64,000 bases of DNA from an uncultured Chloroflexia bacterium (GTDB lineage Bacteria; Chloroflexota; Limnocylindria; Limnocylindrales; CSP1-4), in contig CAWBFV010000004.1 in the NCBI GenBank assembly GCA_963788235.1, positions 406,336 to 470,335 of the forward strand. The letters are read 5' to 3'. Under the pieces are notes generated by a model. The model did not search any database. It saw only the letters and a program-made list of their open reading frames with translations, and had not been told where the DNA came from. Every line of letters starts with the position of its first letter. The stretch's first letter is position 1. Shown here piece after piece: positions 308 to 14,940 of this stretch. A program made the position numbers and the translations under genes.

Positions 308-1711
308 ATGACCGCAACCCGCGAGATCACCGCCGACAAGCGCGAGCAGTTCGCCTTCCACGACGACATCGCGTACCTGCGCGAGACGAAGCGTGGGCTG
401 ACGCGCGCCACGGTCGAGGAGATCAGCGGCTTCAAGGGCGAGCCGGACTGGATGCTCCAGTTCCGCCTGCGCGCCTTCGAGCACTTCCTCAAGCGCCCGA
501 TGCCGGCCTGGACCGACGGCCTCGATCGGATCGACTTCGACAAGATCGTCTACTACCGCAAGCCGTCCGAGCGCGAAGAGAAGTCGTGGGACGACGTCCC
601 GGAGCAGATCAAGGCGACGTTCGAGCGTCTCGGGATCCCCGAGGCGGAGCGCAAGTTCCTGGCCGGCGTCGGCGCCCAGTACGACTCCGAGGTCGTGTAC
701 CACAGCGTCCGCGAGGAGCTCTCGAAGATCGGCGTGGTCTTCATGGGCACCGACCAGGCGCTCAAGGAATACCCCGAGATCTTCAAGAAGCACTTCGGGA
801 CGATCGTCCCGCCCGAGGACAACAAGTTCGCGGCGCTCAACAGCGCGGTCTGGTCGGGCGGCTCGTTCGTCTACGTCCCCAAGGGCGTCGAGGTGCCGCT
901 GCCGCTGCAGGCCTACTTCCGCATCAACGGCGAGAACACCGGCCAGTTCGAGCGGACGCTGATCGTCGTCGAGGAAGGCGCCAAGGTCCACTACATCGAG
1001 GGCTGCACCGCGCCGATCTACGCGACCGACTCGCTGCATGCCGCGGTCGTCGAGGTCGTGGCGCTGCCCGGCTCGAAGGTCCGCTACACGACGATCCAGA
1101 ACTGGTCGAACGACGTGTACAACCTCGTGACCAAGCGCGCCCACGCGTACGAGAACAGCACCGTCGAGTGGATCGACGCCAACACTGGCTCGCGCAAGAC
1201 CGTCAAGTTCCCGGCGATCTACCTGCGCGGCGAGGGCGCCACGGCCGACATCATCAGCGTCGCGGTCGCCGGCAAGGGCCAGCACCAGGACACGGGCGCG
1301 AAGGCCATCCACCTCGCGCCGAACACGCGGTCGCGGATCGTCTCGAAGTCCGTCTCCAAGGACGGCGGGCGCGCCACGTACCGCGGCCAGCTCAAGGTCG
1401 CGCCCGGCGCCACGAACGTCGTGGCCAGCGTTCGGTGTGACGCGCTGATGCTCGACGACATCAGCCGCAGCGACACCTACCCGTACATCGACATCCAGGA
1501 AGACGACACGACGATGACCCACGAGGCCACCGTCGGGAAGATCAGCGCGGACCAGGTCTTCTACCTGATGAGCCGCGGCCTCACCGAGAACGAGGCCCAG
1601 AACCTGATCGTCCAGGGCTTCCTCGAGGTGTTCACCAAGGAACTCCCGATGGAATACGCCATCGAGTTCAACCGGCTCGTGAAGATGGAGATGGAAGGGT
1701 CGCTGGGTTGA
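308..1711 (+). CDS. sufB: Fe-S cluster assembly protein SufB
   Basis: 467-aa ORF with full-length resemblance to SufB (e.g. ...YFRINGENTGQFERTLIVVEEGAKVHYIEGCTAP..., C-terminal ...FTKELPMEYAIEFNRL...). Followed by sufD through a TTGA overlap. Confidence 0.97.
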   Translation: MTATREITADKREQFAFHDDIAYLRETKRGLTRATVEEISGFKGEPDWMLQFRLRAFEHFLKRPMPAWTDGLDRIDFDKIVYYRKPSEREEKSWDDVPEQIKATFERLGIPEAERKFLAGVGAQYDSEVVYHSVREELSKIGVVFMGTDQALKEYPEIFKKHFGTIVPPEDNKFAALNSAVWSGGSFVYVPKGVEVPLPLQAYFRINGENTGQFERTLIVVEEGAKVHYIEGCTAPIYATDSLHAAVVEVVALPGSKVRYTTIQNWSNDVYNLVTKRAHAYENSTVEWIDANTGSRKTVKFPAIYLRGEGATADIISVAVAGKGQHQDTGAKAIHLAPNTRSRIVSKSVSKDGGRATYRGQLKVAPGATNVVASVRCDALMLDDISRSDTYPYIDIQEDDTTMTHEATVGKISADQVFYLMSRGLTENEAQNLIVQGFLEVFTKELPMEYAIEFNRLVKMEMEGSLG

Positions 1712-3069
1712 CGGCCCCGGCCACGCGGCCACGGCCCGCGCGGCGGGCCATCGACGAGCTGTCCCTGCCGGTCGACGAGGCAATCCTCGAGCGGCTGATC
1801 GCCAGCTCTCCGGATTGGCTCGCCGCCGATCGTCGCGAGGCGTTCGAGCGCTGGACGACGTTGCCGGCCGAATCCAACCTCCTGTACACGTCCTACATCG
1901 ACCTGCGGGCGGCCGCGCTCGAAGACGCCACGTTCGATCTGGTCGCCGACGGTGCCACTGCGTCGGACGCCCTCCCATTGCCCCCGGACGCCGACGCGTT
2001 GATCGAGGTCGGTGAGGGCCGACTCATCGGGGTTGCGCTGTCCGACGCCGCACGAACCGCCGGCGTTCGGCTGCGGACGCTGTCCGATGATCTCGCGACC
2101 GTCCGCGACGATCTCCTTCGCGAGCACGCCCTGCCGGCCGATGACAAGTTCGCCCAGCTGACGCGCGCCATGTGGAGCCAGGGTGTCGTGCTCGACGTGC
2201 CGGCCGGCGTCACGCTCGCCCAGCCGGTCGTCATCCGGTGGGCATCGGGCGCCCCCGATCGTGCCCTGGTCACGCGGACGCTGGTCCGCCTCGGCGATGG
2301 CGCCAGCGCCTCCGTCGTCGAAGAGCTCGTGCCCTCGTCGGAGGACGACAGCACCGGGCAAGCGTTCTTTGCCGGCACGATGGAGGTCACGCTCGGAGCC
2401 GGGGCGGCGCTGCGGGTGGCGAGCCTGCAGGAGCTGCCCGGAAACGTCGTCACGATCCAGCATCGTTCCGCGCTGATCGGCGAGGCGGCCAAGCTCGAGT
2501 GGGCGCTCGCCCAGCTTGGCGGCAGGCTCCTTCGCAGCCGCGTGGACAATCGGCTCGTGGGCGATCGCAGCTCGGTCCGCCAGGTCGAGATCGTCTTCGG
2601 CGCCGACGAGCAGCTGTTCGACCTCACCTCGTACACGACCCACATCGGTCGGGACACGACCGGCGACCTGCTGTCGAAGGCCGCGCTGCTCGAGCGATCG
2701 AGGTCCTACATGAAGGGCCTCATCACGATCGAGAAGTCGGCCCACGGCACCGACAGCTTCCTCGGCGAGTTCGGGATGAACCTGTCGAAGGCGACCCGGT
2801 CCGTCGCGATCCCGTCGCTCGAGATCGACCAGCCCGACTGCCGGCGGGCGATGCACTCGAGCTCCGTCGGCCCGGTCGACGAGACGCAGCTGTTCTACCT
2901 CGAGTCGCGCGGCATCCCGCCGGACGAGGCCCGCAAGTTCGTCGTCCTCGGGTTCCTCGAGCCGGTCGTGGCGCGCGTCCCGCTGGCGTCGGCGCAGGAC
3001 CGCCTTCGCGAGCTCCTCGAGGCCCGCTGGGCCGCCGGCACCGACGGCGTCACGAGCGCCGCTGCCTGA
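1708..3069 (+). CDS. sufD: Fe-S cluster assembly protein SufD
   Basis: 453-aa ORF with a TTG start overlapping the sufB stop. The C-terminal SufBD-fold region (...HSSSVGPVDETQLFYLESRGIPPDEARKFVVLGFL...) is typical of SufD. Confidence 0.9.
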   Translation: MTAPATRPRPARRAIDELSLPVDEAILERLIASSPDWLAADRREAFERWTTLPAESNLLYTSYIDLRAAALEDATFDLVADGATASDALPLPPDADALIEVGEGRLIGVALSDAARTAGVRLRTLSDDLATVRDDLLREHALPADDKFAQLTRAMWSQGVVLDVPAGVTLAQPVVIRWASGAPDRALVTRTLVRLGDGASASVVEELVPSSEDDSTGQAFFAGTMEVTLGAGAALRVASLQELPGNVVTIQHRSALIGEAAKLEWALAQLGGRLLRSRVDNRLVGDRSSVRQVEIVFGADEQLFDLTSYTTHIGRDTTGDLLSKAALLERSRSYMKGLITIEKSAHGTDSFLGEFGMNLSKATRSVAIPSLEIDQPDCRRAMHSSSVGPVDETQLFYLESRGIPPDEARKFVVLGFLEPVVARVPLASAQDRLRELLEARWAAGTDGVTSAAA

Positions 3070-3118
3070 TGCCTCCACAACCTCCCTCGCGACGGCCCCG
3101 GCGCGGCGGGGCAGAGCG

Positions 3119-3457
3119 ATGAGACGGATCGATCTCCTCGGCACCGACGAGATCGAGGACGGCGAGATGAAGATGGCCTGGGTCGACGGCACCGACCAGG
3201 TGCTGGTCATCAACCAGGGTGGCGAGTACACCGCCGTCCAGGGCGTCTGCTCGCACGAGTACTTCGAGCTCGACAAGGGCTTCCTGACCAACGGCACGCT
3301 GACGTGCGCGCTCCACCTGTCCCGCTTCGACCTCTCGAACGGCGAGCCGCTCGACCCGCCCGCCGAGGAGCCGCTGGCCGTCTACCCGGTCGTGATCGAG
3401 GACGGTCGCGTGCTGATCGAGGTGCCGGACGGACCGCTCGAGATCAGCGAGTCGTGA
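3119..3457 (+). CDS. Rieske (2Fe-2S) ferredoxin-like protein
   Basis: 112 aa carrying CSHEY...17 aa...CALH, i.e. the Rieske CxH...CxxH ligand pattern. It sits after sufD, as in many actinobacterial suf operons. Confidence 0.85.
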   Translation: MRRIDLLGTDEIEDGEMKMAWVDGTDQVLVINQGGEYTAVQGVCSHEYFELDKGFLTNGTLTCALHLSRFDLSNGEPLDPPAEEPLAVYPVVIEDGRVLIEVPDGPLEISES

Positions 3458-3842
3458 CCTCCGCGGCCACGACCGCCGCAGCCAGCCGGTCGTCGCCGGT
3501 CACGCTCACCGCGAGGTGGTCGATGCCCGACGCGGCGGCCAGCTCCGCGGCCCGACCGTGCAACACGACCGCCAGGTGACCCGACTCGTCGCAGGTCAAT
3601 TCGATGGATCGGAAGTCGAGCCCTTCGTCCGCGGCCGGCAGCACCTTGAGCGTCGCCTCCTTGACTGCGAAGCGCTGGGCGAGTCGACGAGCGTCCGTCC
3701 GTCCACGGGTCTGGCTGGCCGCGATCTCGCCCGCGGTGTAGACCCGCTCGACGTACCGCGACCCCTGCTCGGCGATGCTCTGGGCGACCGACGCGACCGG
3801 GACGTGGTCAAGACCGAAGCGCAGATTGATCAGTTTTGACAT
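3444..3842 (-). CDS. acpS: holo-[acyl-carrier-protein] synthase (AcpS-type 4'-phosphopantetheinyl transferase)
   Basis: The internal ATG at 3842 of ORF 3444..4235 gives 132 aa: MSKLINLRFGLDHV...RFAVKEATLKVL...FRSIELTCDESGHLAVVLHGRAAELAAASGIDHLAVSVTGDD. This is collinear with AcpS. It is divergent from the carrier-protein gene. Confidence 0.85.
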   Translation of the reverse strand: MSKLINLRFGLDHVPVASVAQSIAEQGSRYVERVYTAGEIAASQTRGRTDARRLAQRFAVKEATLKVLPAADEGLDFRSIELTCDESGHLAVVLHGRAAELAAASGIDHLAVSVTGDDRLAAAVVAAEVTTR

Positions 3843-4043
3843 GGTGTTCACATCCGGATACTTGTAGGGTGGTCTGGACGTGTCAAGGTCGGTTGAGCGG
3901 GTGCAGCGGCGCACCAAAAGGGCGCCGGATAGTCCCCCTCGACCTGGTACGTATGGCACGGTAGTGGGGCACCTGCCGTAATCTTTCCGGGGACATGACC
4001 GAGCGCCTCGAGCGCCGAAAATCAAGGGGATAGGGGGAAGTCC

Positions 4044-4286
4044 GTGGTCGAGCGCGTTCGACAGATCATCCGTGAGCACGGCCGGTTGCCGTCCGACCTC
4101 AATTCGCTCGACGACGAGGCGGACCTGTACCAGGCCGGCATGACGTCCCACGCGAGCGTGAACCTGATGCTCGCGCTGGAGGCGGCATTCGATGTCGAGT
4201 TCCCCGACGCGATGCTCAAGCGCAGCGTCTTCCAAAGCGTTCGATCGATCTCCGACGCGCTCGAGTCCCTCGGAGCGGCCGCGTGA
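4044..4286 (+). CDS. acyl/aminoacyl carrier protein (phosphopantetheine-binding)
   Basis: 80 aa with a GTG start after a GGGGGAAG Shine-Dalgarno. Carrier-protein helix II region LYQAGMTSHASVNLMLALE, with the Ser in the position of the DSL serine. Confidence 0.85.
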   Translation: MVERVRQIIREHGRLPSDLNSLDDEADLYQAGMTSHASVNLMLALEAAFDVEFPDAMLKRSVFQSVRSISDALESLGAAA

Positions 4287-5458
4287 TGGCCGTCGCCATC
4301 GACCGCGATCAGGCCTTCCTCGACGCCGTCCGGCGGATCGCCGACGAGGTCGCGGCGCCGAACGCCGACGTGGTCGACCGTGAAGCCCAGTTCCCGACCG
4401 CCACCATCGATGCGCTCAAGACAGAGGGTGCGCTGTCCGCCTTCGTCCCCACCGAATTCGGTGGCGGCGGCCTGCGGTTCGAGACCATCGCCGCGGCGTC
4501 GTTCGAGCTCGGTCGCCGGTGCGGTGCCAGCGCCATGGTCTTCGCGATGCACCAGATCCAGGTCGCGACGATCGTTCGCCACACGGACGGCGCTCCGTGG
4601 TTCGAGGCGTATCTGCGGGATCTCTCGAGCGAGCAGCGACTGATCGCGTCGGTCACCTCCGAGATCGGGACCGGCGGCGACCTCGGTCGCTCGATCGCGG
4701 CGGTCACCCCGGCTGCCGACGGCCGCGCGACGTTCGAGAAGCAGGCCCCGACCGTGTCCTACGGCGCGTACGCGGATGACCTGCTCACGACGCTGCGGCG
4801 CGACCCCGACGCCGAGCCCGGCGACCAGGTGCTGGCGCTCACGCGTCGGGACCAGACCGTCCTCGAACAGGTCGGCACGTGGGATCCGCTCGGCATGCGC
4901 GGGACGTGCTCTCCGGGCTACACCGTCCGGGCCGAATTCCCGACCGACCAGATCCTCCCGACGCCGTTCTCCGCGATCGCGCCGGTGTCGATGGTGCCGG
5001 TCACCCACATCCTGTGGTCGCACCTCTGGCTGGGCATCGCGACCGACGCGTTCGATCGAGCCCGTGCGTTCGTTCGGGCGACCGCCAAGGGTCGGCCCGA
5101 GGCCGCGCAGCCGATGGCGCTCCGCCTGTCGCACCTCATGAGCGAGCTCGCGCTGCTCCGCGCCGAGGTCGGATCGGGGCTCCGCGACTTCACGGACCTC
5201 GCCGACACGGATCGGGAGCGGCTGACGACGCTGGCGATGATCCTGCGGTTCAACAACCTCAAGCTCGCCTCCTCGGAGCAGGCGCCGCGGATCTGCCACG
5301 GGGCGCTCGGCGTGAACGGCATCGTCGGGTTCAAGAACGACACGCCGTTCAGCGTGGGTCGCCACCTGCGCGACACGATGTCCGCGTCGCTGATGATCGC
5401 GAATGAGCGTATCCACCAGACGAACGCCAGCCTGCTACTGATCGCCAAGGACGTCTGA
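4283..5458 (+). CDS. acyl-CoA dehydrogenase-family flavoprotein (probably acting on a carrier-protein-bound substrate)
   Basis: 391 aa with ACAD-like N-, middle and C-terminal regions. The start (GTG 4283 or ATG 4286) overlaps the carrier-protein stop. The C-terminal ...RDTMSASLMIANERIHQ... aligns with the ACAD ...RDAKIYQIYEGTxxIQ... segment but has no Glu at the canonical catalytic position. Confidence 0.85.
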   Translation: MMAVAIDRDQAFLDAVRRIADEVAAPNADVVDREAQFPTATIDALKTEGALSAFVPTEFGGGGLRFETIAAASFELGRRCGASAMVFAMHQIQVATIVRHTDGAPWFEAYLRDLSSEQRLIASVTSEIGTGGDLGRSIAAVTPAADGRATFEKQAPTVSYGAYADDLLTTLRRDPDAEPGDQVLALTRRDQTVLEQVGTWDPLGMRGTCSPGYTVRAEFPTDQILPTPFSAIAPVSMVPVTHILWSHLWLGIATDAFDRARAFVRATAKGRPEAAQPMALRLSHLMSELALLRAEVGSGLRDFTDLADTDRERLTTLAMILRFNNLKLASSEQAPRICHGALGVNGIVGFKNDTPFSVGRHLRDTMSASLMIANERIHQTNASLLLIAKDV

Positions 5459-5460
5459 CC

Positions 5461-6393
5461 GTGGCGACCTTCCGGCCTGGGACGGCCGACCAGACGGCCT
5501 TCCTCGAGGCGCTCATCGAGCGCGGCCTGCTGATCCCGAGCGGGGTGCCGGGCGTCTACGGACGAGGTGCCGCGTTCGAGCAGGTGCGCGTCGGCGTCGA
5601 TCGGGCGATCGATCGCGCCGCGGCGCCCGATGCCGCCGAGGTGCTGCGGTTTCCGCCGCTGCTGCCGCGCTACCAGCTCGAGGCCCTGGGCTACCTCAAG
5701 AACTTCCCGCACCTCGCGGGCACGATCTTCGGGTTCGACGGGAGCGAGGCCGAGGCCAACGAGCAGTTCGACCTGGCGTCGCGCCACGAGGACTGGAGCG
5801 GGTACCAGCACATGAGCGACCTGGTGCTGCTGCCGGCCGCGTGCTACCCGGTCTACCCGGCGATCGCCGCGCGCGGGCCGCTGGCCGCTGGCGGCATCAC
5901 GATCGACGCCGGCGGCGCCTACGTGTTCCGGCAGGAGCCGTCCGGCGATCCCGCCCGGCTGCAGATGTTCCACCAGCGCGAGATCGTGCGGCTCGGTGAG
6001 CCGGACACCGTCGTCGCGTGGCGGGACTCCTGGCGCGACCGCGCGGTCGAGATCCTGAGCGGGCTTGGGCTCAGCCCGGTCGCCGACGTGGCCTCGGATC
6101 CGTTCTTCGGGCGGCAGGGCCGGATGCTCGCAGCCAGCCAGCGCGAGCAGGCGCTCAAGTTCGAGGTGCTCGTCCACATCGCCGGGCCGGAGCCCACGGC
6201 GGTCGCCTCGTTCAACTATCACCACGACCACTTCACGTCGACCTACGGCGTCACGCTGGCCGATGGGGGCGTCGCGCACACCGCCTGCCTCGGGTTCGGT
6301 CTCGAACGCATCACGCTCGCCCTGTTCTGCACGCATGGCCTCGACTCGAACGCGTGGCCCGATGACGTGCGCTCCGTGGTGGGGCTCGCGTGA
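5461..6393 (+). CDS. amino acid--[carrier protein] ligase (truncated class II / atypical SerRS-like aaRS homologue)
   Basis: 310 aa with no tRNA-binding arm. Class II motif 2-like GGAYVFRQE and motif 3-like CLGFGLERITLALF, plus the PAACYPVYP region. It matches the aa:CP ligase family described from Bradyrhizobium and Agrobacterium. It lies next to a carrier protein. Confidence 0.85.
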   Translation: MATFRPGTADQTAFLEALIERGLLIPSGVPGVYGRGAAFEQVRVGVDRAIDRAAAPDAAEVLRFPPLLPRYQLEALGYLKNFPHLAGTIFGFDGSEAEANEQFDLASRHEDWSGYQHMSDLVLLPAACYPVYPAIAARGPLAAGGITIDAGGAYVFRQEPSGDPARLQMFHQREIVRLGEPDTVVAWRDSWRDRAVEILSGLGLSPVADVASDPFFGRQGRMLAASQREQALKFEVLVHIAGPEPTAVASFNYHHDHFTSTYGVTLADGGVAHTACLGFGLERITLALFCTHGLDSNAWPDDVRSVVGLA

Positions 6394-7364
6394 GCCTCTC
6401 GACCGCGCCGATGGCCAGCCTGTTCGGCCTCGACCCGGCGACCTACCGGCCCCACGACCTGCATGTCGCCGAGGACCGCGTCTACCTCGAGACGAACTGC
6501 TACATGGACGTGATCATCGAGCTCCTCCATGCCCGCGGGGACGAACCCCTGGCGGCGATGGGCTCGACGGTGCGACTCGACTTCGAAGGCGACCAGTGGA
6601 CGTTCTTCAAGCCCGATCCAGCCGACCTCGAGCGCCTCTACGGGATCGACATCCACGAGATGCAGCCCTGGCGCTCGATCCCGACGCAGATCGCCGAGCT
6701 GCTCGAGGCCGGTCGCACGCTGACGGTCGAGCTGGACGCCTGGCTGCTGCCCGACACGGCGTCGACGAGCTACCGCACGGAGCACGTGAAGACCACGGTG
6801 ATCCCCGAGGCGATCGACCTCGAAGGGGAGCGGCTGCACTACTTCCACAACGGCTCGCTGTACGAGCTCAGCGGCGACGACTACCGCGGGATCTTCCGGC
6901 TGGAGGTCGCGGACCCGGCGCTGCTGCCGCCGTACACCGAGCTCGTGCGCTTCGACGCCGGTCCGCGCCTCGCCGGCGCCGAGCTGCGCGGTGCGTCGCT
7001 CGACGCCCTGCGCCACCACCTCGCCCATGCGCCGGCCACCGACCCGTTCGCCCGCTTCGGCGAGCGGCTGGGGGCCGATCTCCCCGGGCTCCTCGACGGC
7101 GACGCGGCGACGTACCACGCCTACGCGTTCGCCACCGTCCGAATGGCCGGGGCGGGTTTCGAGTTGCTGGGATCGCACGTCGACTGGCTGCTCGGTGCCG
7201 CGGGCGCACCGGCGCACGAGGCGCTCGGCCGCATCGTGGACGGCGCGAAGGTCCTCGGGTTCCGTCTGGCTCGGCAGCGACCGTTCGATCCCGAGCCGAT
7301 CGTCCGCGACATGTCGACCGCCTGGGCCGATGCCATGGCCGCGCTGCACCGCGCCGTCGACTGA
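6390..7364 (+). CDS. DUF1839-like protein of unknown function
   Basis: 324 aa with a GTGA overlap onto the ligase stop. From memory the sequence resembles the DUF1839 family that accompanies aa:CP ligases. N-terminal motif VYLETNCYMDVIIELLH. Confidence 0.7.
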   Translation: MSLSTAPMASLFGLDPATYRPHDLHVAEDRVYLETNCYMDVIIELLHARGDEPLAAMGSTVRLDFEGDQWTFFKPDPADLERLYGIDIHEMQPWRSIPTQIAELLEAGRTLTVELDAWLLPDTASTSYRTEHVKTTVIPEAIDLEGERLHYFHNGSLYELSGDDYRGIFRLEVADPALLPPYTELVRFDAGPRLAGAELRGASLDALRHHLAHAPATDPFARFGERLGADLPGLLDGDAATYHAYAFATVRMAGAGFELLGSHVDWLLGAAGAPAHEALGRIVDGAKVLGFRLARQRPFDPEPIVRDMSTAWADAMAALHRAVD

Positions 7365-7368
7365 GCGC

Positions 7369-9917
7369 ATGACTGCGTCGGCCGTTCCAATGCCACGGCG
7401 CCACATGGGCCTCGACGTGCGCTCGATCGACCGAGGGTGGGAGGTCGCGTCGGCGCTGGCGGCCCCCACGAGTGCGGGCGTTCCGGCGGATCTCGAGTGG
7501 ATCCCCGCGTCGGTCCCCGGCACGGTCGCGGGAGCGTTCCGGGATGCCGGTCGCACGGTGCCCGACGATCTCGACGACCGCGATTGGTGGTTCCGCACGC
7601 GCTTCGAGGCGCCGCCGGCCGAGACCGGCGAGGAGATCGTCCTGCGCTTCGGCGGCATCGCGACGCTCGCCGAGATCCTGCTCGACGGGGAGCGCATCGC
7701 GACCAGCGAATCGATGTTCGCGCCGCTCGACGTCGACGTCACCGATCGCCTGGGTGGTTCGCACGAGCTCGTCATCCGGTGCCTCGCCCTTGCCCCACGA
7801 CTCGCCGAACCGCGCAAGCCGCGTGCCCGCTGGCGCACCGCAGTCGTGGCCGACGGCAACCTGCGCTGGTTCCGCACGACGCTGCTCGGGCGGGCACCCG
7901 GGTTCGCGCCCGGCCCGCCGGTCGTCGGGCCCTTCCGACCGGTCACCCTCGAGCGACGGAGCGGCATCGTCGTCGAGGACCTGCGCGTCCGGGCCCGACT
8001 CGCCGGTGAGGACGGCCGGCTCACGGTCAGTGCGCGCCTCCGCGCGCTCGATGGACGGGCGCCCGAGACGGCCTCGGTCGAGCTCGACGGACCGAACGGA
8101 GCCCACACGACCACGCTCACGATCCAGTGAGGCCGACGGCGCGATCACCGTCCAGGGCGAGCTGATCGTCCCGCGGGTGGCCACGTGGTGGCCGCACACC
8201 CACGGCGAGCCGAACCTGCATTCCGTGCGGTTGTCGATCGGGAGTGGCGACGCCGCGACGTCCGTCGATGGCGGGCGCGTCGGCTTCCGGGCGCTGACCG
8301 CCGGACCGGGCCCGGATCACGACATCGAGCGCGACGGGCTCGCGATCCACGTCGGCGGCGTGCCGGTCTTCGTCCGCGGCGCGGTCTGGACCCCGATCGA
8401 TCCGGTCGGGCTCGCGACATCGAGCACGGACCTGCGGTCGTCGCTGGAGCTGGTGCGCGACGCCGGCATGAACATGCTCCGCATCCCCGGCACCGGCCTC
8501 TACGAGACGGCCGAGTTCCACGATCTGTGCGACGAGCTGGGGATCCTCGTCTGGCAGGACCTGCTGTTCGCGAACCTCGATTACCCGTTCGCCGACGACG
8601 CGTTCCGATCGCTCGTCGATCGTGAGGTCGCCGAGGTCCTCGGCGGCACTCGCCTCGCGGCCGAGCACCGCCGTCATCTGCGGCAACAGCGAAGTCGAGC
8701 AGCAGGTCGCGATGCTGGGCCTCGATCCCGCGCTCGGGCGCGAACCGTTCTACCGCGAGGGGTTGGCCGCCGCAGCGAACGACGCCGATCTCGACGCGGT
8801 GCTGGTCCCGTCCGCCCCGTTCGGCGGCGATCTCCCGTTCCGCCCCGATCGTGGCGTGGCGAACTACTACGGGGTCGGCGGCTATCGACGGCCGCTGTCG
8901 GACGCACGAACCGCGGGTGTCCGCTTCGCGGCCGAGTGCCTCGCGTTCTCGAACATCCCCGATGGGCCGACCGCGGCGCTTGACGATCCCGCGTGGAAGG
9001 CCGGTGTGCCCCGCGATCGTGGCGCGGACTGGGACTTCGAGGACGTCCGCGACCACTATCTCGAGCTCCTCTACGGCGTCGACCCCGCCGCCCTCCGAGG
9101 CGACGACGCCCCGCGCTACCTGGCGATCTCGCGGGCGGTCAGCGGCGAGGTCATGGCCGAGGTGTTCGGTGAGTGGCGCCGCGCCGGATCGCCGAGCGCC
9201 GGCGGGCTCGTGCTGTGGTGGCGCGACGTCGTGCCCGGTGCGGGTTGGGGCCTGGTCGATCGGGATGGCACGCCCAAGACCGCCTATCACCAGTTGCGAC
9301 GTGCCCTCGCGCCGGTCGCGATCTGGACGACCGACGAGGGGCTCGGCGGCATCGCGATGCACGTCGCGAATGACCGCCCGGAGCGCCTCGTGGCGCGGCT
9401 GCGCGTCGCCCTGTACCGCGGCCTCGAGACCCTGGTCGGGGCAGGGGAGCAGCTGCTCGAGGTCGCGCCGCACGGCGCGACCGACCTCGACGTGGAGGCC
9501 GTGATCGGCCATTTCGTCGATGCCTCGTGGGCGTATCGGTTCGGACCGCCCGCACAGGACCTGATCGTGGTGACGCTGGAGGGGCTCGCCGGAGATCCGG
9601 CACGACCGATCAGCCAGGCATTCCGCTTCCCCGTCGGCCGCCCGTCGGCGGCCGAGACGGCAGCGTCGCTGGGTCTGGACGCGGCCGTCCTCGAACAGCG
9701 CGCGGACGGGACGACACTCGAGATCCGGACGCGCCGGCTTGCCCATGGCGTCCGGTTGGTGGCGCCCGGGTTCACGCCCGAGGACGACGCCTTCTCGGTC
9801 GAGCCGGGCCACGCCCGGTTGATCGACCTCCGCCCGACCGCATCGGGAACGCCGTTCCGAGGCGCCACCCTGACCGCCGTCAACCTCGACGGCGCGATCG
9901 AGATCGACGCGCGATGA
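7369..9917 (+). pseudogene. glycoside hydrolase family 2 (beta-mannosidase-like) protein, readable only across two frameshifts
   Basis: Three collinear pieces lie in three frames. Piece 1 runs 7369/7405-8130 (WEVA...VPGTVAGAF...DWWFRTRF...LRFGGIATLAEILLDG). Piece 2 runs about 8125-8650 (ATWWPHTHGEPNLH...MLRIPGTGLYE...VWQDLLFANLDYPF). Piece 3 runs about 8640-9917 (VICGNSEVEQ...RFAAECLAFSNIPD). Together they give about 850 aa with both catalytic Glu contexts present. The shifts are near 8125 and 8645. Confidence 0.8.
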
Positions 9918-11746
9918 CCGACCGACGCAGCCTGCCGCAGGCCCGCCCGATCTATCTCGGCACGGGCGTCGACGCGGCGTTCGCGATGTATCACGCGGTC
10001 GCCGACGGCGTCGTTCCGGGCGTCGCCGTGCTGATCGCCCCACCGTGGGGCTGGGACGACGTCAGCTCCTATCGCACCCGACGGACATGGGCCGACGACC
10101 TGGCCGAGGCGGGTCACCCGACGCTCCGGATCGACCTTCCTGGCACCGGCGACAGCGGCGGGACCGCGTCCGATCCGGATCGCATCAAGGCAGCGACCGA
10201 CGCGATCGCGGCCGGCGTCACGTGGCTCCGCGCGACCTCCGGCTCCGAACGGGTCGCAGTGCTCGGTCTCGGCTTCGGCGGGATCGTCGCCGCATCGTCG
10301 CTCGCGTCTGGCGCATCGATCGACGACCTCGTCCTCTGGGCCGTGCCCGCCCGCGGCCGCGGGCTGGTCCGGCAGCTTCGGGCGTTCGCGGGCCTCCAGG
10401 GCTCGCGCTACAGCCTGAGCGGTGAGCCCGAGCCCAGCGTGCTGCCGGACGGCTGGCTCGAGGTCAACGGCTTCGTGCTCTCGGCCGAGACGATCACCGC
10501 GCTCGAGGCGATCGAGCTCACCGCGCTGCCGGCGCACGGCCTCGGGCGCGTGCTGCTGCTCGACCAGGACGGGATCGCCGTCGATCCGAAGATCGTCGAG
10601 CACTTCACCGAGGCAGGTGCCGAGGTCACGGTCCGGCCCGGTCCCGGCTGGGGCGCGATGACGTTCCACCCCGAGCGCCCGTCGGTGCCGACGGAGGTGC
10701 TGGCGACGGTCCGTGGCTGGCTCGCCGACGCACCAGCACAGGTCACGGCGCTGCGGCCGGTGGCTGCCCTGCCCGACGCCGGTCCCGACCTGGACCAGAC
10801 GGTCGACGGCGTCGTCGTCCGCGAGACACCGATCGTGATCGACGGGCCGTCCGGCCAGCTGTTCGGGGTGCTGACCCGACCGGCCAACGGCCCGAGCGCG
10901 GCGCTCAGCGGCGTCTATCTGAACGCCGGCGCCGTTCGGCGGATCGGGCCGAACCGGATCTGGGTCGACACCGCCCGCCAGTGGGCGGCACGCGGCGTCG
11001 CGACGTTGCGCATCGACCTCGAGGGGATCGGTGACTCGGACGGCGACGAGGAACGCTACCGCGACGTCGCCCAGTTCTACGTGAACGACGACGTGGCGGT
11101 GCAGATCCGCGGCGCGATCGATGCGCTGGTGAACCGCGGCCACGGCTCACAGATCGTGCTGGCCGGCCTGTGCGCCGGCGGGTTCTGGGCGTTCCGCGGG
11201 GCGGGTCTCGACGATCGGGTGCGCGCCGCCTACCTGCTGAACCCGGGCGCCCTCGACTGGTACGCGGACCTCGTCGAGGTCCGTCGCGCGGCCCGCCTGC
11301 AGCGGCTGCGGCACTGGGCGTGGTGGCGACGGATCCTCTCCGGTGGCGTGCCGATGCGGAGCATGCGCGAGGTCGCCGGGGCGGTCGCCCGCCGCGTCCG
11401 TCGCACGATCTTCGGCCTGCCGCGGCGCGTCGTTCACCGGCGTTCGGCGGTGGGCGATGCCGGCGCGTCCTCCTCGGCGATCCTCGATCGGCTGTCCGCG
11501 TCGGGGACGACCGTGGTGATGGCGTTCTCCACCGACGAGCCGCTCTACCTCGAACTGGATCGCAACGGGTTCCTGGCCAAGGCCCACCGCTGGCCGACGC
11601 TGCGCCTCGAGCGCCTGCCCGGTCGCGACCACACCCTCCGCCCCGTCAGCGCCCAGCGAGCAGCCCGCGCGCTGCTCGATCGTGAGATCGACCGTGAGCT
11701 CGGCCGCCAGGTCGCGCGCATCACCCAACCAGCGAGGTCTGCCTGA
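9914..11746 (+). CDS. tandem (two-domain) alpha/beta-hydrolase-fold protein
   Basis: The ATG at 9914 overlaps the GH2 stop (ATGA), giving 610 aa. Two homologous halves: HPTLRIDLPGTGDSGG...VAVLGLGFGG and VATLRIDLEGIGDSDG...IVLAGLCAGG. Confidence 0.7.
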   Translation: MTDRRSLPQARPIYLGTGVDAAFAMYHAVADGVVPGVAVLIAPPWGWDDVSSYRTRRTWADDLAEAGHPTLRIDLPGTGDSGGTASDPDRIKAATDAIAAGVTWLRATSGSERVAVLGLGFGGIVAASSLASGASIDDLVLWAVPARGRGLVRQLRAFAGLQGSRYSLSGEPEPSVLPDGWLEVNGFVLSAETITALEAIELTALPAHGLGRVLLLDQDGIAVDPKIVEHFTEAGAEVTVRPGPGWGAMTFHPERPSVPTEVLATVRGWLADAPAQVTALRPVAALPDAGPDLDQTVDGVVVRETPIVIDGPSGQLFGVLTRPANGPSAALSGVYLNAGAVRRIGPNRIWVDTARQWAARGVATLRIDLEGIGDSDGDEERYRDVAQFYVNDDVAVQIRGAIDALVNRGHGSQIVLAGLCAGGFWAFRGAGLDDRVRAAYLLNPGALDWYADLVEVRRAARLQRLRHWAWWRRILSGGVPMRSMREVAGAVARRVRRTIFGLPRRVVHRRSAVGDAGASSSAILDRLSASGTTVVMAFSTDEPLYLELDRNGFLAKAHRWPTLRLERLPGRDHTLRPVSAQRAARALLDREIDRELGRQVARITQPARSA

Positions 11747-12342
11747 TGGTCCTGCCCGAGCCGATCCGGCGAACCGGTGACGATCCGGACATCGATCGGG
11801 AGCTGTTCCGCCGCGCGTTCCGGCGCCATGCCGCGACCGTCACGGTCGTCACGTATCGGGACGCCACGGGGCAGCCGCGGGGCATGACGGCGACCTCGGT
11901 CACCGCGCTGTCGGCCGATCCGCCCTCCCTCCTCGTGTGCATCGACCGGGCGACCAGGACCCACGAGGAGGTCATGCACGAGCGGCGGTTCGGCGTCGAC
12001 CTGCTCTCGGTGCACCAGCGCAAGATCAGCGTCCACTGCGCTCGACCGGGTGCCGACAAGCGCCTCCACGACGCGTGGCTGGCGCCCGATGCGTCGCCCG
12101 GCGCCCCGCCGCGCCTGGCTCGCGCGGTCGCCCACCTCGAGTGCACGATCGAGTCGGCCCTGGACGCGTTCACGCACACCGTGGTCGTCGGACGGATCCG
12201 CTCGATCTGGCTCAATCCGCTCGATCCGACGCCGCTGCTGTACCACGAGGGCGACTACGGTCGGCTCGGTGACCGCACGCTCGTCGACGCCCGGTTCGTG
12301 ACGCCGCTCGACCTCTACGATCCGCGCGACGACGAGGGCTGA
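11746..12342 (+). CDS. flavin reductase-like (FMN-binding split-barrel) protein
   Basis: 198 aa whose start overlaps the preceding stop by 1 nt (TGATG). FRRAFRRHAATVTVVTY...GMTATSVTALSADPPSLLVCI is typical of NAD(P)H-flavin reductase domains. Confidence 0.85.
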   Translation: MVLPEPIRRTGDDPDIDRELFRRAFRRHAATVTVVTYRDATGQPRGMTATSVTALSADPPSLLVCIDRATRTHEEVMHERRFGVDLLSVHQRKISVHCARPGADKRLHDAWLAPDASPGAPPRLARAVAHLECTIESALDAFTHTVVVGRIRSIWLNPLDPTPLLYHEGDYGRLGDRTLVDARFVTPLDLYDPRDDEG

Positions 12343-12349
12343 GCGCGGC

Positions 12350-14940
12350 TCACGGCTGCAGGGTCAGCGTCGCGACGGTGGCCTTCGCGATCGCGTCCCT
12401 GGTGAACGGCAACGGCAGCGTTTCGCCGGTCCGCCACGGCTCGATCTGGTCACGGTAGTGCGCGTCGAACGGGTTGCCGGCCTGGCCCGTCGTGATGACG
12501 ATGCGGGCGCCGTCGAGGTCGGTCATGTCGATCGTCAAGCGGTATGACGGCAGGTTGGTGACGCTGAACAGCGTGTCGATGCCGGCGACCGGGGCCGTCG
12601 GGTCGTCCGGGTCCGGGTACGCCCGCCTGAACTGGTAGTAGGTGTTGTCGACGGCGCCGGCCGCGCCGCCGACCGCCACGGGACCGGCGTTGAAGTACGA
12701 CTCCAGCGGGGCGATGCCGCTGGCGGTGCCGATCGTCGCCTCCCGGAACGTCGCGCTGTGCAGGCGTCCCCACGTCCAGCCGTCCGGCTCGCCGAGCGCG
12801 GCACGCAGCTCGGCGCCGGCCTGGTCCATGGCTCGGGCGATGATCTCGGGCGCGGTCTCGCGAACGTCCGGTGTCGAGACGTCGTCCCAGAGATCCGCCC
12901 CGGGTTCCTGGAGCAGGTTCGTCAACGCGACCCAGCTCGAGGGGCTCCCGACGTAATCCCGGGCCAGTCCGAGCAGGTCGTCGTCGAAGATCCCGCGCAG
13001 GACGCGATACTCCCAGGCCATGTAGGCAGCGCAGCCGAGACTGTCGGTGCCACACGCTCCCTCCCAGTCTGCGATCCGCGCGGAGATCAGTTCGCCGTCC
13101 GCCGTCGCCGGCTTGGCGTCGCCGAGCATCAGCACGATGTCGCCGGCGCGCGGGATCACGGTGTCGTTCTGGATCGCGCCCATCTCGGCCTGCGTCAGCC
13201 CGTCCTGGGCGCGCACGTTGATCTGGTCGATGATCCGCTCCGCGCGATACCCGGGATCGAAGTCGTTGCCGATGAACCGCGGGTCGCCCGGATCGAGCGG
13301 GCTGTTGTTGGCGCTCACGATCCAGCCGTCGACCGGGTCGAAGGCGGTGGGCAGCTGGTCGAACGGGATGCGCCCGGTCCATTCGCCGGTGCCGTCGGAG
13401 CCGGACACCGGGCGCAGGCCCCGATCCGCGGGATCGGAGCGGATGGGGATGTACCCGGACAGCTGGTAGCCGATGTGACCGTCGACGTCGGCGTACACGA
13501 AGTTCTGGGCCGGCGCGACGTAGCCCTCGAGCGCGGCACGGAACGACGCGAAGTCGGTCGCGGTGTTCACTCGCAGGAACGCCTCGACGCGTCCGGTCGG
13601 GACCCACGGCAGGGTTCGTGGCCGTCCAGCGCAGGGCCATCAGGGGCGCGTTGGCCAGTCGACTGTCGACGTCGTTGAGGATCGGGCCGTGGACGGTCTC
13701 GCGGACGGTCAGGTCGACCGCGTCGCCGCCCGACACGAGGATCCCCTCCACGCGCGTCGTGAACGGTAGTGACGTCCCGTCCGGGCCGAGGTAGTGCGTC
13801 GGATCGGCCGGATCGACCGTCTCGATGACGAGGTCCTGGACGTCGGGTTCGACGTTCGTCACGCCCCACGCGATCCGGGCGTTGTGTCCGAGCACGACGC
13901 CCGGCACGCCGCCGAACGAGACGCCGACCTCGTCGTACGGGCAGCTCTCAGTGACCTCGCGGCAATGCAGGCCGTTGATGTACCAGACCGACGGCATCGA
14001 GATCCCGAGGTGTGGATCGTTGGCCAGCAGCGCCCCGCCACTCGTCGACAGGCTCGGGGCGACCACCCAGTCGTTCGAGCCGATGCCGTGGTCGGAGGCG
14101 AGCGCGCCGTCCCCGGTCGAATCGAAGCCGGCGAGGGCGAGGGCACGACCGCCGAGCCCGGCAACGCTCCGCCAGGCCGCCTCCTGGGTCGCGGCTGAGC
14201 GCGGGCCGGGCCGCCGTCCTCGCGCGAGGGTCGCCGCCGTCGACCACGTCAGCCGCCGGTGGCTCCTCGGCATCCGGTGCGGGCACGATCACCGGCCCGA
14301 ACTCGCGGGTCGGGAAGAGCGAGTCGGTCAGCGCCGGGTCGACCAGCCGCTGATCCGCGAAGAACCGGAAGAGCTCGGCGTCCATGTTCCCGCCGAGGTT
14401 CCAGGCCTGGAGCTTCTCGAAGGCCAGCGTGTCGAGCACCGACCACGGTTCGGGCTTGTCGCCGGTAACGATGAACGCCATGCCGAGGTTGTTGCGGTTG
14501 GCGTCGAGCCAGGCATTCACGCCGGCCGCGTACGCCTCGAGCACCGATCGCGTCTCGCTGCTCAGCGCGGCGAGGTCGCGTTCGGCGGCCTGCCGCCAGC
14601 CCAATGTCCGGATGAACCGGTCGGTGTCGAGGGAGCCCTTCCCGAACACCTCGGCGAGCCGGCCGGAGGTGATCCGTCGCCACACCTCCATCTGCCACAT
14701 GCGCTCCTGGGCGTGCACGTACCCCTGCGCCATGAACAGGTCGCGTGGCGTCGAGGCCGTGATCTGGGCGATTCCGCTGGCGTCGCGTTCGATGGTGACC
14801 TGATCCTGCAGCCCGGGTACCTGCAGGGACCCGGTCGTCTGGGGGTGGGCTCGAAGCGTGATCCAGGCGATCCCACCGGCCCCGACCACGACCGCCAGCA
14901 GCACCACGAGCAGCAAGCCGACGATGACCTTCCTGATCAC
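12350..14940 (-). pseudogene. penicillin acylase / N-acyl-homoserine-lactone acylase family (Ntn hydrolase), readable only across two frameshifts
   Basis: N-terminal piece 14940 to about 14200: signal/TM MIRKVIVGLLLVVLLAVV, then ...MAQGYVHAQERMWQME. Middle piece about 14200-13620, with the Ntn nucleophile context GIGSNDWVVAPS...LANDPHL. C-terminal piece about 13620-12350. Collinear, about 860 aa in total. Confidence 0.8.

What the first reader, a model, noticed from the sequence alone, without database searches (positions are those of the whole stretch)
4283..5458. ACAD-like enzyme lacks the canonical catalytic Glu and shares its operon with a flavin reductase, suggesting a two-component oxygenase on an aminoacyl-S-carrier
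In acyl-CoA dehydrogenases the catalytic base usually sits in the C-terminal ...IYEGTxxIQ... segment. The aligned segment here reads ...LMIANERIHQ..., with Ile at the Glu position. ACAD-fold proteins without this Glu include flavin-dependent oxygenases and N-hydroxylases, which need a separate NAD(P)H:flavin reductase. Such a reductase closes this operon at 11746-12342. ACAD homologues acting on carrier-bound amino acids are established, for example prolyl-S-PCP dehydrogenases and ZmaI in aminomalonyl-ACP formation. Oxidation or N-oxygenation of an aminoacyl-S-carrier is therefore plausible. I cannot exclude the alternative base position used by isovaleryl-CoA dehydrogenase.
Basis: partly seen in the sequence, partly recalled or inferred. 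Interest (0 to 1): 0.6.

Follow-up and report, generated by a model that had tools for sequence, protein, structure and literature searches.

The report
Glutamate-less ACAD-fold enzyme on aminoacyl carrier
This flavoenzyme has the acyl-CoA dehydrogenase fold but lacks the catalytic glutamate in its whole family, and it sits in a widespread, functionally unsolved operon that loads glycine or alanine onto a carrier protein. It probably oxidises the amino group of that loaded amino acid, but the neighbouring flavin reductase is a lineage-specific add-on, not a conserved partner.

Summary
The ORF (4283/4286-5458) gives a confident ACAD-fold model (pLDDT 97). Aligned with two genuine ACADs of the same genome, the MCAD-type Glu falls on Ile372 and the IVD-type Glu on Thr241. 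Across 69 diverse family representatives these positions are always I/V/L and almost always S/A/T. The nearest acid (Glu375) is missing in 12 of 69.

The gene belongs to the known orphan cassette ACP, ACAD-like, amino acid:carrier-protein ligase, DUF1839, GH2-like, double alpha/beta hydrolase. This scan has met the cassette before on other DNA.

The reductase argument is weak. A reductase lies nearby in 16 of 80 related loci, all Chloroflexota or Dormibacterota types, and in none of 59 actinobacterial loci or 4 informative distant contexts. Nine of those 16 reductases sit beside an HpaB-type oxygenase. Two single-chromosome assemblies with the cassette have no such reductase. In the window's own clade, however, it is the genome's only PF01613 gene, is stop/start-coupled, is under purifying selection, and has no HpaB partner.

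Fold and profile searches tie dehydrogenases with N-oxygenases (KijD3, DnmZ, TdsC). ChmG is a published precedent: a Glu-less ACAD that N-oxygenates prolyl-S-ACP.

Estimated odds:
- N-oxygenase, about 0.4.
- C-N dehydrogenase or oxidase, about 0.33.

This is a new variant of a known kind. Interest is moderate.

The parts
3444..3860 (-). AcpS-type 4'-phosphopantetheinyl transferase, divergent from the operon (start codon uncertain; the ORF as listed runs to 4235)
   Evidence: PF01648 at 42.8 bits; NCBIfam holo-ACP synthase models; the domain covers residues 140-259 of the 263-aa ORF. Present in 58 of 80 related loci.
4044..4286 (+). Dedicated carrier protein (80 aa, ...GMTSHAS... serine motif)
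   Evidence: NF005480 at 105.6 bits (cut-off 72); PF00550. Its stop overlaps the ACAD start (GTGATG). Present in 78 of 80 loci.
4283..5458 (+). The finding: an ACAD-fold flavoprotein without a catalytic carboxylate. Residues are Ile372 at the MCAD-Glu site, Thr241 at the IVD-Glu site, His242, His90, Tyr160, Asn374 and Arg376.
5461..6393 (+). Amino acid:[carrier protein] ligase (a truncated SerRS-like class II enzyme)
   Evidence: NF005479 at 396 bits (cut-off 357). 269 bits to Bll0957 structures 4H2W/3MEY, with the PAACYP, FRQEPS and HTAC motifs aligned.
6390..7364 (+). DUF1839 protein (papain-like fold with a C-(T/S)-H triad according to PMC10318531); candidate off-loading transacylase
   Evidence: PF08893 at 313.7 bits; paper read. 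Present in 73 of 80 loci.
7369..9917 (+). GH2-like (beta-mannosidase-like) gene, read in three frames in this window: about 7369-8130, about 8135-8650 and 8622-9917
   Evidence: GC3 frame plot; tblastn of the intact L002 orthologue changes frame at about 8118-8135. It is a single ORF of 833-880 aa in L002 and L028 and a called gene of 848 aa in L093. PF22666.
9914..11746 (+). Duplicated alpha/beta hydrolase (about 610 aa)
   Evidence: TIGR03100/TIGR03101-like halves, PF12146 and PF00561. Present in 67 of 80 loci.
11746..12342 (+). HpaC/HsaB-type NAD(P)H:flavin reductase, the last gene of the operon in this lineage only
   Evidence: PF01613 at 120 bits. ATG overlaps the hydrolase stop. It is the only PF01613 match in each of G000-G004. 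omega is 0.26-0.44 among the diverged pairs of the five orthologues.

Best explanation
The protein is a flavoenzyme of the ACAD fold. It acts on the glycyl- or alanyl-thioester that the neighbouring SerRS-like ligase places on the dedicated carrier protein. It has lost the carboxylate base that every classical ACAD uses.

Most likely it works as an amine N-oxygenase of the KijD3/DnmZ/ChmG type. Reduced flavin reacts with O2 to give a C4a-hydroperoxide, which hydroxylates the free alpha-amino group of the aminoacyl-S-ACP. A second round could give the oxime. In this lineage the reduced flavin would come from the operon's own reductase; elsewhere it would come from any cellular source. The modified acyl group would then be passed on by the DUF1839 papain-like protein.

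Shown:
- the fold;
- the absence of Glu/Asp at both base positions, family-wide;
- the coupling to the ACP and the ligase;
- the lineage-restricted reductase.

Inferred:
- the substrate amino acid;
- O2 and reduced-flavin chemistry;
- the fate of the product.
For: 1. No carboxylate at either ACAD base site, in the protein or in 69 diverse relatives. Glu375 is not conserved enough for an essential base, being absent in 12 of 69.
2. Characterised aminoacyl-S-carrier dehydrogenases keep their Glu: CaeB1 E372 (PMC8149447) and AnaB/Bmp3/ChmH (PMC10849742). The Glu-less ChmG is an N-oxygenase of prolyl-S-ACP.
3. The family profile hits nitrososynthases almost as well as true ACADs. KijD3 scores 105 bits, DnmZ 99 and ORF36 94, against BCD at 117 and SCAD at 101.
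4. Foldseek's first hit is FMN-bound TdsC, and KijD3 has the highest query-normalised TM-score listed, 0.84.
5. The active-site helix PVTHILWSHLWLGIA resembles TdsC PITQLIFTHLYLGIA far more than the ACAD sequence GGRIGIAAQATGIA.
6. The ACAD R-x-QFG motif is absent and its Arg is not conserved. The segment aligns with KijD3 with a 4-residue gap just before it and a 1-residue insertion after it.
7. The ligase is 269 bits to the Gly-specific Bll0957. Reviews report Gly or Ala as substrates. Glycine has no beta-carbon, so classical alpha,beta-dehydrogenation is excluded for it.
8. In the window's clade (G000-G004) the operon reductase is the only PF01613 match in the genome and no HpaB partner exists. 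It is stop/start-coupled in the window and under purifying selection.
Against: - The reductase is absent within 10 kb in 64 of 80 close relatives, including all 59 actinobacterial loci whose ACAD is 69-77 % identical.
- It is absent in 4 distant contexts that otherwise keep the six-gene core or an NRPS.
- Two single-chromosome assemblies with the cassette have no PF01613 gene.
- Where the reductase occurs in sister genomes it sits beside an HpaB-family oxygenase, its textbook partner.
- The upstream suf genes are also syntenic in 9-10 of the same loci. Shared neighbourhood in this clade may therefore be descent rather than function.
- Full-length NCBIfam matches are to dehydrogenase models. 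SfnB and DszC match only the N-terminal two thirds.
- VIA-align puts isobutyryl-CoA dehydrogenase, isovaleryl-CoA dehydrogenase and ColB1 at Z 42, marginally above the oxygenases at Z 39-41.
- No chemistry was tested.
Confidence: 0.4

Rival explanations
1. FAD-bound aminoacyl-S-ACP amine dehydrogenase or oxidase. A histidine (His242, next to the IVD base site, or His90) removes the alpha-proton of the thioester-activated Gly/Ala. Two electrons pass to bound FAD. The 2-iminoacyl-S-ACP hydrolyses to glyoxylyl- or pyruvoyl-S-ACP. O2 or ETF reoxidises the flavin. No reductase is needed.
For: - The cassette works without any nearby reductase in 64 of 80 loci, and without any PF01613 gene in two single-chromosome assemblies.
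- The genome has two ETF alpha genes.
- His242 (64/69) and His90 (67/69) are nearly invariant and lie on active-site helices.
- The flavin-N5 Ser/Thr (Ser159) and most ACAD scaffold residues are invariant.
- Full-length matches go to dehydrogenase models, and the top VIA Z scores go to dehydrogenases, including the carrier-acting ColB1.
- Nitroalkane oxidase shows that the fold can run carbanion-type oxidations (own knowledge; 3MKH at Z 37).
Against: - No ACAD-fold enzyme with a histidine base or with C-N dehydrogenase activity on an aminoacyl thioester is known to me.
- The R-x-QFG element is lost. In ACADs it holds the FAD pyrophosphate (own knowledge).
- This reading does not explain why the window's clade keeps a selected, operon-coupled reductase with no other obvious client.
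Confidence: 0.33
2. Classical alpha,beta-dehydrogenase that uses a relocated base (Asp/Glu375 at the first turn of the last helix, or His242). It converts alanyl- or seryl-S-ACP to dehydroalanyl-S-ACP, as VioJ and CaeB1-type enzymes do on NRPS lines.
For: - An acid is present at 375 in 57 of 69 relatives.
- The ligase has Gly where Bll0957 has Ala just after the zinc cysteine (CLGFG versus CVAFG). From memory of mutagenesis work, this enlarges the pocket toward Ala/Ser.
- Distant family members flank NRPS modules.
- ColB1 scores Z 42.1.
Against: - Position 375 is Q/H/S/G/R/A/T in 12 of 69 relatives, which is not the behaviour of an essential base.
- By alignment and model secondary structure, residue 375 is three residues past the base position, on the helix.
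- Known members of this functional class keep the canonical Glu.
- The reaction is impossible if the substrate is glycine.
Confidence: 0.12
3. Non-redox use of the ACAD scaffold, as in the KtzA cyclopropanase or the 3-sulfinopropionyl-CoA desulfinase, or a purely structural/chaperone role for the aminoacyl-ACP.
For: - The Glu-less desulfinase 5AF7 is among the best structural matches (Z 41.1; Foldseek).
- The base is lost family-wide.
Against: - Flavin-site residues are strictly conserved (E127, S137, K153, S159, R206, T208, R363, D364).
- omega is 0.15-0.23 among the diverged pairs.
- No leaving group is available on Gly or Ala.
Confidence: 0.08

Closest known systems
ChmG / HrmN (chalkophomycin and hormaomycin pathways; PMC10849742)
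   Same: Both are annotated as ACADs and act next to a stand-alone ACP and a loading enzyme. Both lack the catalytic glutamate. ChmG's AlphaFold model resembles KijD3. An alpha/beta hydrolase lies in the same gene set. ChmG is shown to N-oxygenate an aminoacyl-S-ACP.
   Different: ChmG acts on prolyl-S-ACP loaded by an adenylation enzyme in a secondary-metabolite cluster. Here the loader is a SerRS-like ligase specific for small amino acids, and the context is a six-gene cassette often found in glycan loci. Sequence relatedness to ChmG could not be measured, because no ChmG sequence was available by reference.
Amino-sugar nitrososynthases KijD3, DnmZ and ORF36 (PDB 3M9V/4KCF, 4ZXV, 3MXL)
   Same: They share the ACAD fold and lack an ACAD base. 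The family profile scores 94-105 bits against them, and KijD3 has TM 0.84. They oxidise a primary amine with reduced flavin and O2.
   Different: Their substrate is a dTDP-amino sugar, not a thioester on a carrier. Identity is only 22-24 %.
CaeB1/ColB1, AnaB, PigA/RedW/PltE (aminoacyl-S-carrier dehydrogenases of the ACAD family)
   Same: They are trans-acting ACAD-fold flavoproteins working on carrier-tethered amino acids. ColB1 (7XP7) scores Z 42.1.
   Different: They retain a catalytic Glu: CaeB1 E372, and AnaB/Bmp3 at the position where ChmG has Met. The NCBIfam RedW and PigA models score 20.7 and 17.8 bits against cut-offs of 650 and 500.
aa:CP ligase cassette of Bradyrhizobium (Bll0957 with its carrier protein) and Agrobacterium (Atu2573)
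   Same: The ligase (NF005479, 396 bits; 269 bits to Bll0957 structures) and the ACP (NF005480) are members. The same cassette was noted repeatedly in this scan on other genomes.
   Different: Only the ligase and carrier protein have been studied biochemically. Their biological role was still described as unknown in 2022 (PMC9437257). I found no study of the ACAD-like partner in the held papers.

Membership tests
Classical acyl-CoA dehydrogenase (EC 1.3.8.x) | Three-domain ACAD fold | tested here: met
   AF2 model at pLDDT 97. Foldseek E 1e-17 to 1e-18 and TM 0.8 to SCAD and BCD. VIA Z 42 to IBD and IVD.
Classical acyl-CoA dehydrogenase (EC 1.3.8.x) | Catalytic Glu/Asp at the MCAD-E376 or the IVD-E254 position | tested here: not met
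   Ile372 and Thr241 by alignment with two ACADs of the same genome. Among 69 relatives, position 372 is I/V/L only, and position 241 is S/A/T apart from one G, one R and one N, never acidic.
Classical acyl-CoA dehydrogenase (EC 1.3.8.x) | R-x-QFG segment of the C-terminal domain, which holds the FAD pyrophosphate in ACADs (own knowledge) | tested here: not met
   The own-genome ACADs read DRQQFG and TREQFG; the query reads RATAKG. The Arg varies (R/K/Q/N/T/L) in the family.
Classical acyl-CoA dehydrogenase (EC 1.3.8.x) | Electron transfer to ETF | not testable with these tools
   Two ETF alpha genes exist in the genome. This says nothing about partnership.
ACAD-fold two-component flavin monooxygenases (DszC/SfnB, nitrososynthases, isobutylamine N-hydroxylase) | ACAD fold without the dehydrogenase base | tested here: met
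ACAD-fold two-component flavin monooxygenases (DszC/SfnB, nitrososynthases, isobutylamine N-hydroxylase) | Sequence membership in a curated model | tested here: not met
   SfnB scores 60.9 bits against a cut-off of 430.9; DszC scores 46.9 against 850; both cover only the N-terminal two thirds. PF08028 matches 44 of 69 members and PF00441 matches 67 of 69, both weakly.
ACAD-fold two-component flavin monooxygenases (DszC/SfnB, nitrososynthases, isobutylamine N-hydroxylase) | Dependence on a separate NAD(P)H:flavin reductase | tested here: inconclusive
   A reductase is coupled in this window and clade. It is absent near 64 of 80 relatives and in two whole genomes. Sister genomes pair it with HpaB. 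Such enzymes often use unlinked reductases.
ACAD-fold two-component flavin monooxygenases (DszC/SfnB, nitrososynthases, isobutylamine N-hydroxylase) | O2-dependent oxygen insertion via the flavin C4a-hydroperoxide | not testable with these tools
   Needs an enzyme assay.
Aminoacyl-S-carrier dehydrogenases (RedW/PigA/AnaB/CaeB1) | Gene next to a stand-alone carrier protein and its loading enzyme | tested here: met
   ACP and ligase flank the gene with overlapping or 2-nt junctions. They are kept in 78 and 76 of 80 loci.
Aminoacyl-S-carrier dehydrogenases (RedW/PigA/AnaB/CaeB1) | Catalytic Glu, and a score above the family cut-off | tested here: not met
   No Glu is present. RedW scores 20.7 against 650 and PigA scores 17.8 against 500.
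aa:CP ligase cassette (Bll0957/Atu2573 type) | SerRS-like ligase, dedicated ACP and DUF1839 in one operon | tested here: met
   NF005479 scores 396 bits (cut-off 357); NF005480 scores 105.6 (cut-off 72); PF08893 scores 313.7 bits. The ligase scores 269 bits to Bll0957.

The most novel reading that the evidence does not exclude
The whole family, the ACAD-like partner in every aa:CP ligase cassette seen here, could be a glutamate-less, histidine-bearing flavoenzyme that N-oxygenates or oxidatively deaminates Gly/Ala-S-ACP. This would create an N-hydroxy, oxime or 2-oxoacyl unit. DUF1839 would then transfer that unit to a sugar acceptor, giving a new kind of glycan decoration. It would also answer what aa:CP ligases are for, a question the held reviews still describe as open.
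Probability: 0.35. Interest if true: 0.7.

Novelty: new variant of a known kind. Interest (0 to 1): 0.45.

Why it matters
The amino acid:carrier-protein ligase cassette is widespread. The protein atlas lists look-alike ACAD clusters in Pseudomonadota, Actinomycetota, Chloroflexota and other phyla. A 2022 review still describes its biological role as unknown.

The ACAD-like gene was present in all 80 related loci, which were retrieved through it, so its chemistry defines the product. The base-less active site is shown here to be a family trait, not a quirk of one gene. This rules out ordinary alpha,beta-dehydrogenation. It narrows the options to two testable reactions, which intact-protein mass spectrometry can separate by mass shifts of opposite sign.

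The work also warns against reading the local reductase as a system component.

Tried and rejected
- Single-sequence AlphaFold gave pLDDT 35 and was discarded.
- A search for longer, fused forms found no reductase fusion. The 706-aa 'ACAD-ligase fusion' P0272 loses similarity to the ACAD C-terminus before running into the ligase. I read it as a frameshift read-through, not a true fusion. P0123 carries a PAS domain, not a reductase.
- Foldseek, VIA-align and the PDB profile search could not separate dehydrogenases from oxygenases. Scores differ by less than their noise.
- Pfam C-terminal models PF00441 and PF08028 both hit weakly.
- The protein atlas returned only 'acyl-CoA dehydrogenase family' clusters.
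- The 2010 PNAS paper on aa:CP ligases is not held. Searches for Atu2572, Bll0957 and PDB codes 5Z8T/5GJ7 gave nothing useful.
- Model coordinates are not exposed. Distances from Glu375, His90 and His242 to the flavin site could not be measured, so placement rests on alignment and secondary structure.
- No ChmG, VlmH or PDB sequences were available by reference, so no tree with characterised enzymes was built.
- Complex prediction was not used. An enzyme with its carrier is a poor use of it, and a reductase-oxygenase pair need not bind.
Full report
**What is there.** The window is about 70 % G+C. Its closest relatives are MAGs labelled Chloroflexia or Candidatus Limnocylindrales.

On the + strand from 4044 to 12342, third-position GC marks a run of tightly packed genes. 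In order they are:
- a carrier protein (NF005480, 105.6 bits);
- the ACAD-like ORF 4283-5458;
- an amino acid:[carrier protein] ligase (NF005479, 396 bits, cut-off 357);
- a DUF1839 protein (313.7 bits);
- a GH2-like gene;
- a duplicated alpha/beta hydrolase that resembles the exosortase-associated hydrolases 1 and 2;
- a PF01613 flavin reductase.

An AcpS-type PPTase is divergent upstream. Junctions are overlaps or gaps of 2-5 nt: GTGATG at ACP/ACAD, TGAccGTG at ACAD/ligase, and TGATG at hydrolase/reductase. No terminator-like site lies inside the run on the + strand.

**The observation.** The ACAD-like protein matches only the N-terminal ACAD Pfam domain above threshold. With 69 relatives as an alignment it nonetheless folds as a complete ACAD-type model, pLDDT 97 and pTM 0.95.

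I aligned it with two genuine ACADs found in the same genome.
- Their ...LYEGTQQIQ and ...IGEGTSQVQ segments lie without a gap over ...LMIANERIHQ. The catalytic Glu therefore corresponds to Ile372.
- The conserved Arg of helix G corresponds to His242. The residue before it, the isovaleryl-CoA dehydrogenase base position, corresponds to Thr241.
- The model's last helix begins at Asn374, which puts residue 372 in the loop before it.

The exhaustive representative search gave 481 cluster representatives at E <= 1e-30. In 69 full-length ones, 33-68 % identical to the query:
- position 372 is only I/V/L;
- position 241 is S/A/T with three exceptions, none acidic;
- the nearest acid, position 375, is D or E in 57 but Q, H, S, G, R, A or T in 12.

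That pattern is not what an essential base shows. By contrast, Met89-His90, Tyr160, His242, Trp245/249, Asn374 and Arg376 are invariant or nearly so. So are the scaffold and flavin-site residues Glu127, Ser137, Lys153, Ser159, Arg206, Thr208, Lys327, Arg363 and Asp364.

**The system.**
- In 80 loci from GTDB species genomes the ACAD gene is accompanied by the ACP (78), the ligase (76), DUF1839 (73), the GH2-like gene (70), the double hydrolase (67) and the PPTase (58).
- The same six-gene core persists at 43 % and 35 % ACAD identity (L093 and L095). L095 lies among glycosyltransferase and Bac_transf genes.
- Other family members, at 34-39 % identity, lie directly beside NRPS C-A-PCP modules. 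The family as a whole therefore works with carrier-tethered amino acids.
- The ligase scores 269 bits against the solved Bll0957 enzyme, with the zinc-site motifs aligned.
- Reviews state that these ligases load Gly or Ala and that the biological role is unknown (PMC5370406 and PMC9437257).
- DUF1839 is classed as a papain-like fold with a C-(T/S)-H triad (PMC10318531).
- This scan has already met the cassette on at least eight other genomes. I used those notes only as orientation.

**The reductase.** A homologue of the reductase lies within 10 kb downstream in 16 of the 80 loci. All 16 are among the 21 loci labelled Chloroflexota or Dormibacterota; none is among the 59 actinobacterial loci, whose ACAD is still 69-77 % identical. 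The arrangement varies:
- directly after the hydrolase in the window and L001-L004;
- after an HpaB-family oxygenase in L006, L008, L010, L012 and L069. In L006 the HpaB start overlaps the hydrolase stop;
- divergent from such an HpaB gene in L015, L018, L019 and L020;
- behind a convergent carboxylesterase gene in L007 and L017; L009 looks similar but was not checked.

The upstream sufB-sufD-Rieske genes are syntenic in 9-10 of the same loci. Conserved neighbourhood in this clade can therefore be plain descent.

Two single-chromosome assemblies that carry the cassette have no PF01613 gene at all. No reductase occurs in the four informative distant contexts, and no reductase fusion exists among longer homologues.

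On the other side, each of five genomes of the window's own clade has exactly one PF01613 match, the one behind this operon where I traced it. None has an HpaB homologue. The gene is intact in all five. Among the diverged pairs its omega is 0.26-0.44, against 0.15-0.23 for the ACAD gene.

In this lineage the reductase is thus a maintained operon member whose only evident flavoprotein neighbour is the ACAD-like enzyme. I count this as mild support for an oxygenase reading here, not as a defining feature.

**Which chemistry?** Homology does not decide.
- The family profile scores butyryl-CoA dehydrogenase at 117 bits, KijD3 at 105, SCAD at 101, DnmZ at 99, ORF36 at 94 and TdsC at 92.5.
- Foldseek ranks FMN-bound TdsC first and SCAD next. 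KijD3 has the highest query-normalised TM, 0.84.
- VIA-align gives Z 42 for isobutyryl- and isovaleryl-CoA dehydrogenases and for ColB1. It gives 41.4 for a flavin monooxygenase (5Z8T) and 39-40 for TdsC and DnmZ.
- All NCBIfam models score far below their cut-offs.

Two local features lean toward the oxygenases.
- Helix G (PVTHILWSHLWLGIA) is close to TdsC's PITQLIFTHLYLGIA and unlike the ACAD sequence.
- The ACAD R-x-QFG segment is replaced by a stretch that aligns with KijD3 with only a 4-residue gap before it and a 1-residue insertion after it.

Published biochemistry gives the sharpest guide.
- CaeB1 and ColB1 dehydrogenate cysteinyl-S-PCP and need Glu372 (PMC8149447).
- AnaB, Bmp3 and ChmH keep their Glu.
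- ChmG has Met at that position and a KijD3-like model. It N-oxygenates prolyl-S-ACP (PMC10849742).

If the substrate is glycine, alpha,beta-dehydrogenation is chemically impossible.

I therefore rank the readings as follows:
- N-oxygenation first, about 0.40;
- FAD-bound C-N dehydrogenation or oxidation with a histidine base second, about 0.33;
- dehydroalanine formation with a relocated base third, about 0.12;
- a non-redox role last, about 0.08.

**Verdict.**
The 'no Glu, acts on an aminoacyl-S-carrier, may be an N-oxygenase' half stands and has a published precedent. The 'shares its operon with a reductase, hence two-component' half rests on a lineage-specific arrangement.
- The enzyme is a new variant of a known kind: a Glu-less ACAD-fold enzyme on a carrier-bound amino acid, in an orphan cassette rather than a natural-product cluster.
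- The decisive experiment is a mass-spectrometric reconstitution, in which the two leading readings give mass shifts of opposite sign.

Noticed in passing
window 7369-9917: The GH2-like gene is read in three frames here: frame 1 to the stop at 8128-8130, frame 2 from about 8135 to about 8650, and frame 0 from 8622 to 9917. Orthologues are single ORFs of 833-880 aa in L002 and L028, and a called gene of 848 aa in L093. This means either two indel errors of a long-read MAG or a pseudogene.
   Followed up: partly
window 12350-14273 (- strand): A penicillin-amidase gene is also split over two frames. ORFs 12350-13570 and 12450-14273 both hit PF01804 on consecutive parts of the profile. A second frameshift within 7 kb favours assembly indel errors.
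   Followed up: no
L006 17515-18954; also L008, L010, L012, L069, L014, L015, L018, L019, L020: Sister genomes carry an HpaB-family oxygenase (TIGR02309-like at 297 bits, below the cut-off of 480). It lies between the hydrolase and the reductase, or divergent from the reductase. In L006 its start overlaps the hydrolase stop. The window's clade has lost it or never had it.
   Followed up: partly
L082-L086: Family members 34-39 % identical to the query sit directly after NRPS C-A-PCP modules. One cluster has sulfotransferases and a PqqD-like gene. Another has an A domain interrupted by a luciferase-like domain, plus a reductase release domain. The family is thus not confined to the aa:CP ligase cassette.
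   Followed up: no
window 5461-6393, near the C-terminus of the ligase: After the third zinc-ligand cysteine the ligase reads CLGFG where glycine-specific Bll0957 reads CVAFG. From memory, an Ala-to-Gly change at that spot widened Bll0957 specificity. This ligase may therefore take alanine or serine rather than glycine.
   Followed up: no
L026/L040, L042/L052 and L030/L060 (pairs on the same contigs): Several Solirubrobacterales genomes carry two copies of the ACAD-like gene 30-40 kb apart. One copy has the ligase; the other has an ACP and DUF1839 but no ligase.
   Followed up: no
window 308-3457: sufB, sufD and a Rieske gene lie directly upstream. They are syntenic with the cassette in 9-10 related Chloroflexota loci. 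This is a useful control showing that neighbourhood conservation in this clade extends beyond functional linkage.
   Followed up: partly
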